Part shown: positions 35,146-59,791 of the stretch, in pieces
Position numbering within the stretch: the stretch's first letter is position 1
How the letters are laid out: each line of letters opens with the position of its first letter
IMG/VR virus record: IMGVR_UViG_3300002144_000477
Span: 1-64,000 of that record
Length of the DNA stretch: 64,000 nt
Strand: one strand, 5' to 3'
From: a virus
Notes under the pieces: model-generated
Database searches by the model: none
Told to the model about the DNA's origin: nothing
The model's input: only the letters and a program-made list of their open reading frames with translations
Translations under genes and position numbers: made by a program

Positions 35146-38100
35146 TTACACTGCGATGTACTGTTTTGCTACACGCACTGTTGCTGATCCGCTTGCTGGC
35201 TCTGCTTGTACAAGCACATTGGAACCACTCATTGTTGCTGAGTATTCCATGAACTCGCCGTTCGTAGCAGTTTGACCGTAAACGGTTACCGTTGCTGTTG
35301 TACCATCATGTATTACCAACAATTCAGCTACTTCGTAGTCTGTACCGTTAGTTGATTGTACCACTAGTTTAGCACTACGGATTGCGTTTCCGTCAATTGT
35401 TACAAGAGTCGATGGAGCACCAGCTGCTATAACTACGCCGGCCTTGTTCTCAACTAATGCACCATCTGTATTCCAGTATGATGTAATAGTACCAGCACTT
35501 GTACCAGTGTAGATGTTAATAGCACCGTTAACTGGCTCCAACTTCATAACACCGTTGCCACTAGCAACACCACTCAATGAGCTAGTTGTTACTAAGATTC
35601 TAACGTCAATAACGTCGCCTGTTGCAGGTGCTTCAGTGAACGTGAGTGTTGTGCTACTTACAGAGTAAGCACTTGTTGGTAATTGAACAACACCGTTAAT
35701 ACTTACAACTACGCCGGCTGTAGTAGCGTCTTGGCTTAATGTAAATGCTACAGTTGAATTATCACCGCTGAAACTGTCTGCTGTAATTAGAGTAAAGTCG
35801 CCTGCTAGGTTCTTCCACTCTGCACCAGTGTAAATTTCAGCAGAACCAACTGTACTGTTGTAACGTAGCATACCTTGTTCAGGAGCAGCCGGACGCTGTG
35901 CATTTGAACCAGATGGAATCATTATCGAATCTGTACCAATAACTTTCAATCTTGCTTCAGTTGTTAAGTCACCTGATGTGCCGTCACCACCAATGATCAC
36001 TTGGTCGTATGTTGCACTTGCTACTACACGGAATAGACCGTCTAATGATGCACCTAATGTAGTTAGGTAGTTACCTGCTGTGTTGTCTGGGTTTACTGTT
36101 ACTGCGGTAAATGTTGCAGTATCAGGAGCGTTAGCACCAATAACACCGTCTAAGTCACCAGTTACATTACCAGTTACATCACCAGTTAAGTCGCCGGTTA
36201 CGTTACCTGTTACGTTACCTGTTAGGTCACCAGTTACATCACCTGTTACGTTACCTGTTACGTTACCTGTTAGGTCACCAGTTACATCACCTGTTACATC
36301 GCCAGTTACATTACCAGTTACGTTACCTGTTAGATCGCCGGTTACATCACCTGTTAGGTCACCAGTTACATTACCTGTAACATTGCCTGTTAGGTCACCA
36401 GTTACATTACCTGTTACGTTACCAGTGTGGATACCTGTACTGTTACCAGTTAAGTTACCAGTTACATTACCAGTTACTGCACCTATTAAGTCACCAGTAA
36501 AGCCACCGCTTGCTGTTACTGTTGTACCTGCTACTGCACCAGTTAAGTCGCCAGTTACATTACCAGTTACATTACCTACAACATTGCCAGTATGTAGACC
36601 TGTGCTATTACCAGTTAAGTTACCAGTTACGTTACCAGTTAGTGCGCCAGTAAAGCCACCGCTTGCGGATACTGTTGTACCTGCTACTGCACCAGTGTGT
36701 AGGCCTGTACTGTCACCAGTTAGATCGCCTGTTACATCACCTACAACATTACCTGTTACGTTACCTGTTACGTTACCAGTTACGTTACCAGTGTGTACAC
36801 CTGTACTGTTACCAGTTAAGTCACCAGTTACATTACCTGTTACGTTACCTGTTAGGTCACCAGTTACATCACCAGTTACATCACCAGTTACATTTCCTGT
36901 TAGTGCGCCTGTAAAGCCACCGCTTGCTGAAACTGTTGTACCTACAACTGAACCAGTGTGGATACCTGTACTGTTACCAGTTAGGTCGCCAGTAAATCCT
37001 GCTGAGGTTATACTTGTTAATCCTGCAAATGTTGTTACCGCAGTACCTAGCACAACATCGGTTGTACCAATTGTAACTTTGCTGTTAATTAGCTTGGCAT
37101 TAGCAATTGAACCTGCTAACATTGTGTTGGTTACTGTACCAGCGTCTGTTGTATAAACACCATTGGTAACTGTACCAGCGTTGCCAGTTACGTTACCAGT
37201 TACATCACCAGTTAAATCACCAACTACGTCACCTGTTACGTCACCTGTCAAATCGCCAGTTACGTTACCTGTTACATTACCAGTTACGTTACCAGTTACA
37301 TCACCAGTTAGGTCGCCTGTTACGTTAGCGTAAACTTCTTTATTGAAGTCCCAACTATCAGTGCCTGAAGCGTAAGTAATTGTAGCGCCTGCACCATCAA
37401 CTGTTAAACCAGCACCATTAGCTGCGGTTGCATCGGCTGCACCTTTAGCAACAGTAATGTTGATGTCTGCAATATCAACTGTGTTAGAGTTAATTGCGGT
37501 TAATGTACCGTTAACTGTTAAGTCACCACCAACAGTTAAGTCACCAACTGTAGTTACGTCTGTTGGTAAACCAATTGTAACTGTATTGTCAGTAACGACG
37601 ACTGTTGTTTCGCCTGCTGTACCAGCAAACGTTACTGTATCAGTAGCTAGGTTAACAACATCGGTAGTAGTACCGTCTGTCATTGTCATTGTACTAGAAA
37701 CACTTACCTGACTAGCACTAGTGATACGACCTTTTGCATCTACTGTAATAGCGGCTGCGTGTGTTGAGTCACCGTATGTACCTGGAGTAACACCAGATGT
37801 AGCTAATGTCAATGCTAAGTCAACTGCGCCAGTACCATCGAATGATACGGCAGCGGCTGTTGCGTCACCGGAAGCGCTAAAGTTTTGTGCTGTGGCTAGT
37901 GCTGTTGCTGTATCGGCATTACCAGTTACATCACCAGTTAAATCACCAGTTACATCACCAGTTACATCGCCAGTTACGTTACCTGTTAAGTCGCCTGTGA
38001 AGCCAGCACTTGCTGATACTGACGCACCAACAACGTTACCTGTTAGGTCACCAGTTACATTACCTGTTAGGTCGCCAGTTACATCGCCAGTTACATCACC

Positions 38101-55880: not shown

Positions 55881-56360
55881 AGTTCTCTAGCGAGAACTGT
55901 TTACTTCACTAACGTTCGTAAACTTTTTTATTTTCTTAATTAAGTATCATCCAGATTAAGCAGTCACACTTTGCCCTTGCGGGGCAAAGATAAAATTGCG
56001 CATCATCCGAGTAGCACAGTCACTAGCGTTCGAACTATAATGCTACATAAATGTTACATTAACTGGGTTAACGCTATCTTTATGCTACATTGCGTAGGCG
56101 GTTGTCCTGTACCTACTCATTCTGTCTTTATACAACGGCAGCTAATATAATATACGCTAACATACTATACTAACCTGCTACATCACTGTAGCGTCTTTTT
56201 AGCCTTTTAAATTCTTTTCAAACAATCAAACCGCGGCATTTAAGCGATCGTCGTCCTGTTAAGGATAGTGATTGAGTGCTCCAATCAGCGTAGAGTCTTA
56301 CATCCCTGTGATCCGGTTGATCCAGGTTTAGTGCATACGAGGTTAGCCTATGCTAGCTTA
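55881..56360 (-). ncRNA. Candidate large structured non-coding RNA
   Basis: ~480 nt without an ORF in a gene-dense genome; at least 9 hairpins; G-U pairs and GNRA loops (GTGA, GCAA) only on the - strand; boundaries approximate. Confidence 0.6.
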
Positions 56361-56367
56361 TACTGAA

Positions 56368-56464
56368 TTAAATTTTGTTTATAATGTGGGAGCCATGGAC
56401 ACGGACTTGTTACAAGTCCGTTGTGGTATTCGTTTGATTTCAGAACTTTGCAAGCAAATTGTTC
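56368..56464 (-). pseudogene. Frameshifted 3' remnant of a second GIY-YIG-like allele
   Basis: EQFACKVLKSNEYHNGLV(+1)QVRVHGSHIINKI* aligns to EQFKHRVLESDDYYNGHIRVRIHHRQNII of the upstream gene. Confidence 0.75.
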
Positions 56465-56508
56465 TATGTGTAGCCGATCTTATATGCCCAAGTACTTGCC
56501 TTGAAACT

Positions 56509-56955
56509 TTAGTCTTTGTTGGCCTCTGATATTATATTTTGTCTATGATGAATGCGCACCCTGATATGACCGTTGTAGTAGTCATCGGACTCAAGTACGC
56601 GATGCTTAAATTGTTCTCTTGCTTCAACGTAACTACACTCTGCCTTGCTGTAACAATAGTAAAGTATTTCACGTTTAAAGTGTTCTGTGCCTAGTAGTTC
56701 AATGTCTTTTGATAGTGCATCGCTTGAGCCATAATATGTAAGCCAGTCGCTGTCGACTTGGTCTTTGATTCGCTTTTTCTTTTTGGTGCCGTTTTTGAGT
56801 GTAACTATACGATATTTGATTCGAGAAAACTTTGCTAATTTTTTGCCTATGTATTTTTTGTTTGTTTGTGTGTTTGTGATGAGATATACGAAGCCAATGG
56901 AGTCTTCTGGTAAAGTATTAACAATTTCGTTTTTGTATAGCCATGATGTTGTCAT
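56509..56955 (-). CDS. GIY-YIG-like endonuclease
   Basis: GFVYLITN....KKYIGKK, YYGSS, FKREIL, E...Q, YYN; start MTTSW. Confidence 0.8.
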   Translation of the reverse strand: MTTSWLYKNEIVNTLPEDSIGFVYLITNTQTNKKYIGKKLAKFSRIKYRIVTLKNGTKKKKRIKDQVDSDWLTYYGSSDALSKDIELLGTEHFKREILYYCYSKAECSYVEAREQFKHRVLESDDYYNGHIRVRIHHRQNIISEANKD

Positions 56956-56963
56956 TTGTAGTA

Positions 56964-57446
56964 TTATATAGTGTCTCCGTAGATCCAACCTAATCTTTCT
57001 AACTTATGGATCCACGTAAATGCAGGTAATCGAATCGGTAAGTGCCAACGTTCGTTGTAACATACATAGTTACCAAACATTGGGTCAATGGCAGCCGCTG
57101 GAGACCCATCCGGGTACCTGCACCAATGGTTACAGCGAATCTGTTGCATAATGCTGTCGAGTGCAAATCCTTCGACAGTTATGTTGTCAATGGACACTGC
57201 TTTATCGTTGACTATTTCTCCGTTAACAACAACAGTGTCGCCGGGCTTCTTATTTAACAGCGTTACACCCAATCCGTACTCATACCCGTATTTTCCTTCT
57301 AGAGTAAAATTCATAGTAACAGTTTCGTTTAATATACCTTCCCATAGAATTTCATCACCCCAGTCAACTTGTACTTTCGGTGGGTCGTCGCTGTGAAACA
57401 CAGGACGTAGTGTTATTGCTACTTGGGTATTAATTACTGTATCCAT
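56964..57446 (-). CDS. Hypothetical protein
   Basis: 160 aa, coupled to the radical SAM gene; PAFTWIH...GWIY. Confidence 0.6.
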   Translation of the reverse strand: MDTVINTQVAITLRPVFHSDDPPKVQVDWGDEILWEGILNETVTMNFTLEGKYGYEYGLGVTLLNKKPGDTVVVNGEIVNDKAVSIDNITVEGFALDSIMQQIRCNHWCRYPDGSPAAAIDPMFGNYVCYNERWHLPIRLPAFTWIHKLERLGWIYGDTI

Positions 57447-58722
57447 GTTCTTTTAACCATCCGTTGTATTCTGGGATAAAATCTAAAATGCTTGTACCGT
57501 GAAAGCGATCCTGCTCGGCTAAGCGTTTTGCTGTTTCTGCTCTGCGTTCTAGTGCATTCTCAGGTTCTGCACGGTCTAAGTGCCTGGCTAAAGAAAGCGC
57601 CTCCTCGCGGAGAGATAACTCAATATTATTTGGGTTTTTAGTGTTATTAAAGCGGTTTTCAGTCACTGTAATGCCGTCTGCAAACTCCTGTAGCTTACGT
57701 ATTGCAACACGTTTATGTGCTTCGGGTAGTAGCTCTGCTAGCAACCAATTTGGTCTACTAGGGTAACTAGCATCAACAGGAATACGTCGTTTTAACGCTT
57801 CTTTTAATATAGTTGTGTACCTACCTACACTAAGCAACGTGGGCACAGTTCTAAACGTTAATGTGGCAAATGCAAGTTCTTTTTGCATAGTATCAACATT
57901 CTTAAGGATGTCTTCGATCTTACTCCCGGCACGAATATAGTTATTACTACTGTCGGCAGTTTCGATACTAATGCCAATTTCTACACGTTTAAACTGTTTA
58001 AATTGTGCTTTAAATTCCGTGTAATCATGTGTGCCATTAGTAGTAAAACTCAAGTTCAACCAATTCATTTTGTGTTCGCTAAACAAATTAATTAAGTCAG
58101 CAAACTCGTCGATTAAATGTGGTTCCCCGCCGATTAGATGTACAACACGAATGTGCTGGTAGTTATTATCAAACCAATCGCGGAAATTTTGATAGGCTAC
58201 TGCATCACGTACCCAAGGTGTTTGTTTCCAATCACTAGCAATCCAGCCTGCATGTTTTTGGAAACTAGCAATACGGCTGCTTGCATCAGGACTGCACATA
58301 CGGCAAGCCAAATTACAAGTATTACCAATGTTTAAATGCAAACTGCGAATTTTGCTTTCTGTAACTTCAGTAAACAGTTCGCGATGTGGACTCTGCTCAA
58401 AACTTCGATCAAACGCATCTTTAGTAAAGATAACACTTTTTAAGTTTTCTTTTTGCCTAGCACTGGTATATCCAGCGGCATCTTTCATTTGACACATCTT
58501 GCACATTGGGTCAACTGTGTCGCCTAATTTAATTCGACGCTTTTCTTGCATGCGAGTACTGTTCCAATACTCGTCAATGGTCATGTTTTTAATGTTCCAT
58601 TTGGCACCGTCGGGTGTGCCCATTATTTTGTCATTCTGACAGCCGCAGAGATCAAAGCTACCATCATTGTTAATGTTAAGCTCGAACCAGGGTATGTTAC
58701 AAAAAATATCTTTATTAGGCAT
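57430..58722 (-). CDS. Radical SAM protein with N-terminal Cys-rich (SPASM/twitch-like) domain
   Basis: CNLACRMC, GGEP, TTNGT; FCNIPW...LC...CKMC N-terminus. Confidence 0.88.
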   Translation of the reverse strand: MPNKDIFCNIPWFELNINNDGSFDLCGCQNDKIMGTPDGAKWNIKNMTIDEYWNSTRMQEKRRIKLGDTVDPMCKMCQMKDAAGYTSARQKENLKSVIFTKDAFDRSFEQSPHRELFTEVTESKIRSLHLNIGNTCNLACRMCSPDASSRIASFQKHAGWIASDWKQTPWVRDAVAYQNFRDWFDNNYQHIRVVHLIGGEPHLIDEFADLINLFSEHKMNWLNLSFTTNGTHDYTEFKAQFKQFKRVEIGISIETADSSNNYIRAGSKIEDILKNVDTMQKELAFATLTFRTVPTLLSVGRYTTILKEALKRRIPVDASYPSRPNWLLAELLPEAHKRVAIRKLQEFADGITVTENRFNNTKNPNNIELSLREEALSLARHLDRAEPENALERRAETAKRLAEQDRFHGTSILDFIPEYNGWLKEHGYSN

Positions 58723-59791
58723 TATAGCACTTCAGTTTACAAATTTCTAAGGGCATAAGTGCCCAGGTAGTTTCTAGCTCTTCCCAAATTGGGTCAGCTA
58801 TGATATCGTTAATATTACGAGTACGAACATTTAGTTTATTGCGATGTTTGATAACAAAGCTATTGGGAATGTATCCGCTGTCAAACCACGCACAAGGGTA
58901 AAACAACCCCTCAACACTAATAAATGGGACTTGCACTCTGGTTTTACCTATACATTTTTGCCAACCCGTTGTACTGCGATCTTGTGGCTTAGCACGATGT
59001 ACAGCGTTAACTCGTACTTCGTGCATAGTGTTAACATTCTGCTGTCTCTTAGTAGTTAGCAACATTTTCTTCTTGCGGTAAATTTTTAAATTAATTGCAT
59101 CGTTAATCGTATCGGGTTCAAGGTAGTCGATTCCGTTTTCGTCTAAGTAGCGTTGGTCTATGCTACCAAACTTAGTGCTAGTGACAATTGTAAATTCGTC
59201 ACACCCGGTTAATCGAGCAACTTCTTCGATTCTGTGTTTATTGCTTTCGTTAAACTTAAACTCGATCATGCTCCAGCTAATAAGTGCTCGTGTGTCGGTA
59301 GTCTTACTGGCGACTAGCACACGGATACCATCCAATATGCTATCGTAGTCGCAGTTAACTCGATACATGCTGTTAGTTTGCTGGTTCCACCCGTCGACAC
59401 TAAAGGTAACTCGGTCGTACTCGTTTAGTACATTGCCTAGTCTGGCCCACCAATCTGGCTTCTTATAACTCCCATTGGTAACGATAGTTAACCCAAGTGC
59501 TGGATTAGATTGTTTAATATATTCTACAATTTCTAAAAAGTCAATTGCATATATCGGATCACCTTTATCCCCGCAGAATACAATGCGTTCAACTTGTGCT
59601 AGTACATCCGGCGGAAAGCTAGATTGGAATTGGCTAACAGAGTAGTCTAAATTTAAACTAGGATGCAAATCGTTTTTTAGTTCAGTGCGAGGGCACCTAG
59701 GGCATTTTAGTACACACCTACTACTTAATTCAATGTGTAACTCGCTAATGTTAAACAATGTCGATGTCGGTGTTGTAACTAGTGAATCCAT
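58715..59791 (-). CDS. Radical SAM protein with C-terminal SPASM/twitch-like domain
   Basis: CVLKCPRC, CGDKGDP, TNGS, FSVDG, YPCAW...CKLKC; true start may be the TTG at ~59758. Confidence 0.88.
   Translation of the reverse strand: MDSLVTTPTSTLFNISELHIELSSRCVLKCPRCPRTELKNDLHPSLNLDYSVSQFQSSFPPDVLAQVERIVFCGDKGDPIYAIDFLEIVEYIKQSNPALGLTIVTNGSYKKPDWWARLGNVLNEYDRVTFSVDGWNQQTNSMYRVNCDYDSILDGIRVLVASKTTDTRALISWSMIEFKFNESNKHRIEEVARLTGCDEFTIVTSTKFGSIDQRYLDENGIDYLEPDTINDAINLKIYRKKKMLLTTKRQQNVNTMHEVRVNAVHRAKPQDRSTTGWQKCIGKTRVQVPFISVEGLFYPCAWFDSGYIPNSFVIKHRNKLNVRTRNINDIIADPIWEELETTWALMPLEICKLKCYNA

What the first reader, a model, noticed from the sequence alone, without database searches (positions are those of the whole stretch)
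55946..56023. Duplicated GTGACTG-N8-GGATGAT module in the RNA (K-turn or box C/D-like, with variable 8-mers)
Seen: two 22-nt units, at 56002-56023 and 55946-55967, have identical 7-nt flanks and different 8-nt cores (TGCTACTC and CTTAATCT on the - strand). A GNRA hairpin separates them, and each is closed by an outer stem (CGC/GCG; AAGTG/TACTT). Known: UGA...AUGAU with tandem G-A pairs is the geometry of kink-turns and D'/C' boxes, and TIGR arrays use box C/D-like repeats with short spacers. Inference: these are two protein-binding sites, or two loops presenting short guide or kissing sequences. Only two units are present, so this is not an array.
Basis: partly seen in the sequence, partly recalled or inferred. 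Interest (0 to 1): 0.75.

Follow-up and report, generated by a model that had tools for sequence, protein, structure and literature searches.

The report
Twin-box module of a phage RNA
The two repeated units are real and lie in the uncatalogued 3' part of a roughly 430-base folded phage RNA; their shared 7-letter word is always identical in both copies although it differs between phages, which suggests one unknown partner reads it twice, and they are not kink-turn or box C/D elements.

Summary
GTGACTG-N8-GGATGAT occurs exactly twice in 64 kb, at the stated minus-strand coordinates.

The units lie about 200 nt downstream of a strong Rfam Polynucleobacter-1 match (RF01718). They belong to a conserved, uncatalogued 3' extension of that RNA. 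I found this extension in 176 uncultured T4-like phage loci and 4 small Burkholderiales genomes.

The N8 cores are not hypervariable guides. The feature of interest is the 3' flank, a 7-nt "box". It has 15 variants, and the two copies are identical in all 180 loci. Similarity between the units runs from -6 to +3 around the box. The fixed differences are all transitions (ACUC against AUCU, then G against A).

Unit 1 is a hairpin with its box in or beside the loop. Unit 2 shows no closing stem.

The kink-turn, box C/D and TIGR readings are not supported:
- The GA steps are not conserved.
- The proposed outer stems do not covary.
- No L7Ae or Nop protein is encoded, including in a 100%-complete relative.

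I found no complementary partner in phage or bacterial genomes, and the neighbouring GIY-YIG nuclease does not co-evolve with the box.

Best reading, unproven: one outside partner reads the same exposed word twice.

This scan has reported the same "twin-box" RNA on many other genomes.

The parts
56220..56358 (-). 5' domain of the RNA: Rfam RF01718 (Polynucleobacter-1) match
   Evidence: 105.6 bits against a gathering score of 37, model positions 1-141.
55936..56219 (-). Uncatalogued, conserved 3' extension of the same RNA. It contains both units. The 3' end is approximate.
   Evidence: An nhmmer profile of this stretch matches nearly full length (profile positions 1-230) in most of the loci fetched through the RF01718 core pattern. 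Several helices covary.
56023..56029 (-). ACGCUAG, the 3' strand of a long-range pseudoknot with the loop UUAGCGU at 56160-56154. Its last G is the first G of unit 1.
   Evidence: Pair 56155-56028 is GC in 42 and AU in 12 sequences. Pair 56156-56027 is CG in 44 and UA in 10. Both are 100% Watson-Crick. Relatives read CUAGCAU/AUGCUAG and CUGAUAU/AUAUCAG.
56002..56023 (-). Unit 1: 5' flank GUGACUG (56023-56017), core with the invariant prefix ACUC (56012-56009), and box 1 GGAUGAU (56008-56002)
55997..56018 (-). Unit-1 hairpin: stem UGUGC (56018-56014) with GCGCA (56001-55997), and a 12-nt loop U-ACUC-GGAUGAU
   Evidence: Window fold is -5.3 kcal/mol and the duplex is -7.0 kcal/mol. Across the family, matched against permuted duplex energy is -4.79 against -3.80, sd 0.10. 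Core 1 with box 1 plus 2 nt is -2.95 against -2.03, z -7.4. The register differs between clades, so fixed-column counts are weak.
55969..55989 (-). Inter-unit hairpin: CUUUGCCC paired with GGGCAAAG, loop CGCAA
   Evidence: RNAalifold consensus on 100 sequences; 3 of 7 predicted pairs have changes on both sides.
55946..55967 (-). Unit 2: 5' flank GUGACUG (55967-55961), core with the invariant prefix AUCU (55956-55953), and box 2 GGAUGAU (55952-55946). No closing stem was detected.
   Evidence: Matched against permuted energy is -3.75 against -3.71. The window fold is -0.4 kcal/mol.
56137..56140 (-). UGCC, a possible alternative partner for the 3' strand of the hairpin (GGCA, 55975-55972)
   Evidence: Three-way covariation. 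56139 pairs with 55973 (GC 47, AU 5). 55985 pairs with 55973 (GC 46, AU 4). 56139 equals 55985 in 96% of sequences. That this is a switch is an inference.
56509..56988 (-). Upstream gene: SegE-type GIY-YIG nuclease domain only (159 aa). It is a neighbour of the RNA, not part of it.
   Evidence: PF19835, E = 3.6e-31. This family is the nearest upstream gene in 154 of 176 loci.

Best explanation
The two units are a 'twin-box' module in the 3' domain of the full-length Polynucleobacter-1 RNA. This is a roughly 430-nt pseudoknotted non-coding RNA. Aquatic T4-like phages carry it once per genome, and small islands in Polynucleobacter-like bacteria carry it too.

Each unit shows the same short word: a pyrimidine prefix (A-Y-Y-Y) followed by a 7-nt box. 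Box 1 sits in or beside the loop of a local hairpin. Box 2 sits in a stretch with no detectable stem. The box sequence is free to drift between lineages, but its two copies must stay the same.

The most likely mechanism is that one trans-acting partner reads the word twice. That partner could be two copies or sites of a complementary nucleic acid, or the two halves of a dimeric RNA-binding protein. The box would then set the specificity of the RNA.

Shown: the anatomy, the conservation and the identity rule. Inferred: that a partner exists, and what kind it is.
For: - Both boxes are identical in 176 of 176 phage loci (12 variants) and in 4 of 4 bacterial copies (3 further variants).
- At least 11 changes of variant are required, and parsimony on a tree built without the repeat columns gives 52. 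All are mirrored in both units.
- For box positions 1 and 7, no other column of the RNA carries comparable mutual information.
- Similarity between the units extends from -6 to +3. The fixed differences are all transitions, as expected if one reader must accept both copies.
- Most of the box is unpaired. RNAalifold leaves both units open. In the window, box 1 lies in a 12-nt loop and box 2 in an unfolded stretch.
- Surrounding helices covary with G-U intermediates, so the constraint acts on RNA.
- The element is present once per genome.
Against: - No partner was found. There is no covarying complement inside the RNA.
- The box is not enriched in the window's genome, and that genome holds no extended complement.
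- Four related phage genomes and a 100%-complete one show no excess of extended complements over control. Nor do two bacterial genomes that carry the RNA.
- G-to-A changes at positions 1 and 5 are always concerted. A pairing partner with U opposite would tolerate mixed states. This is stricter than ordinary base pairing.
- The two units sit in different structural contexts, which fits a symmetric dimer poorly.
- No protein gene is a neighbour in both the phage and the bacterial loci.
- There is no expression data.
Confidence: 0.45

Rival explanations
1. Intramolecular switch. A single 'anti-box' strand (the 5' flank and core of unit 1) pairs either with box 1 in a local hairpin or with box 2 at long range. 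Both boxes must then match the same strand, as regions 1 and 3 do in an attenuator.
For: - Core 1 is more complementary to its own box than to boxes of other variants (-1.73 against -1.18, z -5.8; with 2 more nt, z -7.4).
- The RNA has another three-way covariation of the same kind: 56139 and 55985 are both complementary to 55973.
Against: - Only about 3 of 7 box positions take part in the unit-1 helix. In the window none do, because the stem uses +1 to +5.
- The unit-1 strand pairs with unit 2 of the same RNA no better than with unit 2 of another RNA that has the same box (-4.75 against -4.76). Threading is 52.4% against 49.1 +/- 1.2%.
- Box positions 1 and 7 have no covarying partner apart from the other box.
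Confidence: 0.15
2. DNA-level direct repeats. The two boxes are binding sites on double-stranded DNA for one protein, such as an origin or iteron-type protein or a recombination protein, and happen to lie inside the RNA gene.
For: - Iterons are direct repeats that evolve in concert with their binding protein.
- The locus is at a fixed place in the phage genome.
- A natural deletion between the two repeats exists (L095).
Against: - There are only two copies, and their spacing varies from 47 to 59 bp, so they are not in helical phase.
- The fixed differences between the units are transitions only, and the surrounding helices covary. Both point to RNA-level constraint.
- The same module occurs in bacterial islands with unrelated neighbouring genes.
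Confidence: 0.1
3. Each unit is a kink-turn or box C'/D'-like protein-binding module, with tandem G.A pairs between GUGA and UGAU. It would be bound by an L7Ae- or Nop-type protein and would present its N8 core as a guide.
For: - In the window the letters allow a UGA...UGAU arrangement.
- G3 of GUGA and A6 of the box are nearly invariant in phages, so one sheared G.A pair could be kept.
Against: - Box position 5 is A in 90 of 143 modules. Bacterial boxes are GCGAAA or GCGAUG. The A of the unit-1 GUGA is U or G in 25 of 54 sequences.
- There is no canonical stem plus 3-nt bulge, and flank-to-flank pairing shows no covariation.
- The outer stems are not supported.
- The cores are conserved rather than hypervariable.
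- Three phage genomes, one of them complete, have no PF01248 or PF01798 match, while the control genomes do.
Confidence: 0.04
4. The two boxes contact each other directly. For example, they could form a short parallel-stranded stretch of like-with-like base pairs, the one geometry in which the covariation rule is identity.
For: - Strict position-by-position identity, which extends to partial identity at -6, -5, +2 and +3.
- The mismatched positions would give pyrimidine-pyrimidine and G.A pairs.
- A hairpin-containing linker of 25-45 nt could let the strands run parallel (inference).
Against: - I know of no natural precedent of this length.
- Nothing here tests it.
- Box 1 is partly used in the unit-1 hairpin in many lineages.
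Confidence: 0.04
5. No function for the identity. The copies are homogenised by gene conversion or replication slippage between repeats 56 nt apart.
For: - T4-like phages recombine heavily.
- L095 shows recombination between the repeats.
- Recombination joints occur inside the RNA gene.
Against: - Four positions inside the would-be conversion tract stay different in 143 of 143 (three positions) and 123 of 143 (one position) modules.
- No mixed state is seen in 180 loci.
- Identity also holds in bacterial copies whose boxes are very different.
Confidence: 0.05

Closest known systems
Polynucleobacter-1 RNA motif (Rfam RF01718; Weinberg et al. 2010, Genome Biol 11:R31, PMC2864571)
   Same: The same RNA. 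The window matches the model over its full length at 105.6 bits. The paper's supplement notes that the motif lies downstream of one gene family in freshwater and estuary metagenomes, and also in Polynucleobacter.
   Different: The Rfam model covers only the first 141 nt. The units lie about 200 nt further 3', in a conserved extension with pseudoknots that the model and the paper do not describe. The paper found no example in sequenced purified phage genomes; here 176 loci come from viral contigs.
Kink-turn and archaeal box C/D sRNA (C'/D' K-loop)
   Same: Superficial letter resemblance (UGA ... AUGAU) and two similar modules in one RNA.
   Different: The GA steps are not conserved. There is no C-stem, bulge and NC-stem architecture with covariation. 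There are no terminal C and D boxes and no L7Ae or Nop partner.
TIGR-Tas arrays
   Same: Short repeated units with an inner variable stretch, found in phages.
   Different: There are two units rather than an array. The inner stretch is conserved and the flank is what varies. There is no Nop-domain gene.
Large ornate phage and prophage RNAs (GOLLD, ROOL; cryo-EM in PMC12286853, seen by title and abstract only)
   Same: A large, pseudoknotted RNA of unknown function on phages and mobile islands.
   Different: There is no sequence or Rfam relationship. Whether this RNA forms oligomers has not been tested.

Membership tests
Rfam RF01718 Polynucleobacter-1 | Covariance-model score above the gathering threshold of 37 bits | tested here: met
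   105.6 bits at 56358-56220. The units lie outside the model, but they are collinear with it in 10 of the 11 loci fetched by the double-unit pattern (the eleventh is cut off), and the extension that holds them matches full length in most of the loci fetched by the RF01718 core pattern.
Kink-turn | Conserved tandem sheared G.A / A.G pairs | tested here: not met
   Box position 5 is A in 90 of 143 modules, bacterial boxes read GCGAAA or GCGAUG, and the A of the unit-1 GUGA is A in only 29 of 54 sequences.
Kink-turn | Canonical stem, 3-nt bulge, then non-canonical stem, with the canonical stem covarying | tested here: not met
   The CGC/GCG stem is 63% paired and its CGC is committed to a covarying pseudoknot. 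AAGUG/UACUU shows no covariation above shuffles. RNAalifold leaves both units open.
Kink-turn / box C/D RNP | An L7Ae-family or Nop-domain protein available | tested here: not met
   There is no PF01248 or PF01798 match in G000, G001 (100% complete) or G002, while the control genomes do match. Host proteins could not be tested.
Box C/D sRNA | Terminal C (RUGAUGA) and D (CUGA) boxes plus internal C'/D' boxes, with 10-21-nt guides upstream of D and D' | tested here: not met
   No such boxes are conserved in the alignment. The stretch between the flanks is 6-10 nt, and its last 4 nt are invariant.
TIGR array | A tandem array of many repeats with hypervariable spacers, next to a Tas (Nop-domain) gene | tested here: not met
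   There are exactly two units in every locus, the cores are conserved within clades, and no Nop domain was found.
CsrA/RsmA-binding sRNA | An invariant GGA in hairpin loops, repeated | tested here: not met
   The box begins with GGA in only 76 of 176 phage loci. The others begin AGA, GCA, GAA, ACA or AGU.
T4 gene 60-type translational bypass (matched take-off and landing codons) | An open reading frame entering the take-off codon, a stop codon after it, and an identical landing codon about 50 nt downstream (from memory) | tested here: not met
   All 12 phage boxes can be read as a sense codon followed by UGA or UAA, 47-59 nt apart. However, there is no conserved frame (the distance from GUG to the box is 15-18 nt), the RNA is non-coding and structured, and the bacterial boxes have no stop codon.

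The most novel reading that the evidence does not exclude
The box is a programmable address. The RNA would use two copies of a freely evolving 7-13-nt word to pair with two copies or two sites of a nucleic-acid target in the host cell. Phages and mobile islands would retarget it by changing both copies together. That would make it a guide-like RNA class with no dedicated protein gene beside it.
Probability: 0.12. Interest if true: 0.85.

Novelty: new variant of a known kind. Interest (0 to 1): 0.6.

Why it matters
Covariation in RNA normally means complementarity. Here two segments obey a rule of identity across 15 sequence variants, in phages and in bacteria, and standard structure-finding tools do not look for that signal.

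If one partner reads the word twice, the box is the specificity determinant of a widespread, abundant and completely uncharacterised phage RNA. Swapping it would be a direct experimental handle on the RNA's function.

The result also shows that the Rfam entry describes only the first third of the molecule.

For this particular finding, the practical outcome is that the kink-turn, box C/D and guide-core reading should be dropped.

Tried and rejected
- **Hypervariable N8 guides.** Rejected. The cores are TG[C/A]TACTC and [C/A]TT[A/T]ATCT in the closest relatives.
- **Core 1 pairing with core 2.** No signal (z 0.1).
- **Exact or G-U-tolerant complement of the box inside the RNA.** The only candidate is a conserved GU-rich UUGUUUG at the end of RF01718. 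It fits any box and does not covary.
- **Partner in the phage genome.** The box 7-mer occurs 19 times against a median of 17 for 7-mers of the same composition. The one weak wobble-only 13-mer hit at 36079 is within chance. Five relatives, one of them complete, show no excess over control.
- **Partner in the bacterial genomes that carry the RNA.** Only unrelated coding hits.
- **tRNA link.** The genome encodes only Leu(UAA), Arg(UCU) and Ser(GCU) tRNAs.
- **Codon, anticodon-loop, stop-codon and U-turn readings of A-U-R-A.** The bacterial boxes undo these, because AU becomes CG.
- **Inter-unit helix UCGGAU/AUCUGG predicted in the window.** It fails for GC-type and bacterial boxes (reasoned from the variant sequences).
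- **The nuclease as reader.** L066 and L075 share a 100% identical GIY-YIG protein but differ in box.
- **DUF6641 as a shared partner.** It is absent from the phage genomes.
- **Searches that produced nothing usable.** The phage GenBank collection gave no DNA match. The genome contigs pattern scan returned only chance GC-rich hits.

Full report
**Observation.** On the minus strand the window reads GUGACUG-UGCUACUC-GGAUGAU at 56023-56002 and GUGACUG-CUUAAUCU-GGAUGAU at 55967-55946. With up to two mismatches allowed, these are the only two matches in 64 kb. Chance expectation is 0.17.

**Where the units lie.**
- The window is the first 64 kb of a 170.9-kb IMG/VR contig of a T4-like phage, estimated 49% complete.
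- Rfam finds one strong non-tRNA family on the same strand at 56358-56220: Polynucleobacter-1 (RF01718), 105.6 bits.
- The units start about 200 nt downstream of it, inside the only large ORF-free gap.
- Directly upstream is a 159-aa protein that consists of a SegE-type GIY-YIG domain only (PF19835, 3.6e-31).
- A baseplate-hub gene converges from the other side.

**Relatives.** Three pattern scans of viral contigs brought in homologues:
- 11 loci with the exact double unit;
- 79 loci with the RF01718 core;
- more loci through a conserved 3'-domain motif.

A profile of the stretch downstream of RF01718 matches nearly full length in most of these loci. The RNA is therefore about 430-470 nt, and Rfam describes only its first third. 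Mutual information recovers many Watson-Crick covarying helices. One is a pseudoknot between the loop at 56160-56154 and ACGCUAG at 56029-56023, immediately 5' of unit 1. The RNA occurs once per genome in five phage records, one of them 100% complete. It keeps a fixed place: gp46-like gene, small ORF, GIY-YIG, RNA, then the convergent hub gene.

**What varies and what does not.**
- The N8 cores are not hypervariable. Their last four letters are an invariant prefix: ACUC in unit 1 and AUCU in unit 2.
- The 5' flank GUGAC is only semi-conserved.
- The 3' flank, the "box", has 12 variants in 176 phage loci: GGAUAAU, GCAUAAU, AGAUAAU, GGAUGAU, GGAUGAA, AGAUGAA and six rarer ones. The two copies are identical in every locus.
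- The only family members without two equal boxes are truncated contigs and one natural deletion between the two GUGAC repeats (L095).
- On a tree of the 3' domain built without the repeat columns, parsimony needs 52 changes of variant. The hard minimum is 11.
- Similarity between the units extends beyond the box. Position -4 is the same in 141 of 143 modules, -5 in 116, -6 in 93, +2 in 110 and +3 in 96.
- The fixed differences are all transitions: C/U, U/C and C/U at -3 to -1 in 143 of 143 modules, and G/A at +1 in 123 of 143.

**Bacterial copies.** A sample of 151 Burkholderiales genomes gave four small (1.7-1.9 Mb) genomes with RF01718. All four carry the 3' domain and twin boxes, with new sequences: AGCGAAA, GGCGAAA (twice) and AGCGAUG. 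The prefixes are ACUC/AUCU or CCUC/UCCU. In the two loci with enough flank, no GIY-YIG gene is present. A divergently transcribed DUF6641 gene lies next to the RNA. DUF6641 is absent from the phage genomes. It also removes every reading that depended on the A-U-R-A letters.

**Structure of the units.**
- RNAalifold on 100 diverse modules keeps only the inter-unit hairpin and leaves both units open.
- Unit 1 is nevertheless a hairpin whose register differs between clades. Its 5' flank and core pair with the 3' part of box 1 and the following bases. This pairing is much better within one RNA than with partners from other RNAs (-4.79 against -3.80, sd 0.10; core 1 with box plus 2 nt, z -7.4).
- In the window the stem is UGUGC/GCGCA, and box 1 lies in a 12-nt loop.
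- Unit 2 shows no such stem.
- The 3' strand of the inter-unit hairpin covaries with its local partner and also with UGCC at 56140-56137. This hints at alternative pairings.

- CGC/GCG stem: the first pair is unpaired in 92 of 100 sequences, and the CGC is part of the covarying pseudoknot.
- AAGUG/UACUU stem: 79% of cells are compatible, but there is no covariation above shuffles, and it overlaps the hairpin strand.
- Flank-to-flank pairing: no covariation.
- GA steps needed for tandem sheared pairs: not conserved.
- L7Ae or Nop domain: none in the window's genome, in a complete 354,680-nt relative or in a third relative, while the control genomes match.

I therefore do not file the units as kink-turns, box C/D elements or a TIGR array.

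**What enforces identity.**
- No cis partner covaries with the box.
- No extended complement exists in the phage genomes or in the bacterial genomes that carry the RNA.
L066 and L075 have identical GIY-YIG proteins and an identical RNA 5' part, but a different 3' domain and box. That is a recombination joint inside the RNA gene, as expected for a mobile homing-endonuclease cassette.
- Gene conversion is unlikely, because four positions inside the repeat stay different while the rest stays equal.
- A cis switch with one anti-box strand has partial support. It fails the unit-2 threading and energy controls, and it cannot involve the box at all in the window.

My best reading, at 0.45, is that an outside partner reads the same exposed word twice. 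Its identity is open. The strictness of the rule, with no G/A mixed states in 180 loci, argues for something more demanding than simple wobble-tolerant pairing.

**Comparison and novelty.** The only paper that the literature search found naming the motif is Weinberg et al. 2010, which describes the 5' part only. The twin boxes and the 3' domain appear to be undescribed in the literature. Other agents of this scan have reported them repeatedly on other genomes. This report adds:
- the extended repeat with transition-only differences;
- the asymmetric structural context of the two units;
- explicit negative tests of the kink-turn and box C/D model;
- negative partner searches in complete genomes;
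- the bacterial box variants.

**Limits.** All structure is inferred from comparison and thermodynamic prediction. The hosts of the phages are unknown.

Noticed in passing
L066 and L075 (RNA gene and upstream GIY-YIG gene): The two contigs share a 100% identical GIY-YIG protein and an identical first ~110 nt of the RNA. They then diverge sharply through the 3' domain. This is a recombination joint inside the RNA gene, as expected from homing-endonuclease co-conversion.
   Followed up: partly
L095 (about 60 nt after its GGTA..ACCGCC core): A natural variant lacks unit 1 and the inter-unit hairpin. The sequence jumps from the pseudoknot strand straight into the unit-2 core, consistent with a deletion between the two GUGAC repeats. 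Only one box remains.
   Followed up: no
window 56368-56508 (- strand): Between the intact GIY-YIG gene and the RNA lies a diverged remnant of the C-terminus of the same protein family. In most relatives that C-terminus ends within 15 nt of the RNA 5' end. The remnant suggests that one nuclease allele was displaced by another.
   Followed up: partly
window 56137-56140, 55982-55989 and 55969-55976: Three-way covariation: 56139 and 55985 change together, and both stay complementary to 55973. The inter-unit hairpin may therefore alternate with a long-range helix.
   Followed up: partly
L325 1796-2263 (+); L328 1806-2240 and 2300-2665 (+): In Polynucleobacter-like bacterial genomes the RNA sits beside a divergently transcribed DUF6641 gene, and in L328 also a DUF6876 gene. 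DUF6641 has 3-4 copies per genome, which looks like a family of small mobile islands.
   Followed up: partly
window 56041-56090 (- strand): A roughly 45-nt hairpin insertion inside the RNA is shared with L010, and partly with L013, L014 and L042, but is absent from most relatives. This is a variable expansion segment.
   Followed up: no
window 57430-59791 (- strand): Two adjacent radical SAM genes, one with a SPASM domain, lie upstream of the nuclease. This is an unusual accessory pair for a T4-like phage.
   Followed up: no
window 55881-55898: A palindromic GC-containing hairpin about 45 nt after unit 2, at the convergence point with the baseplate-hub gene, may terminate both transcription units. 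The T-run on the RNA strand is weak.
   Followed up: no
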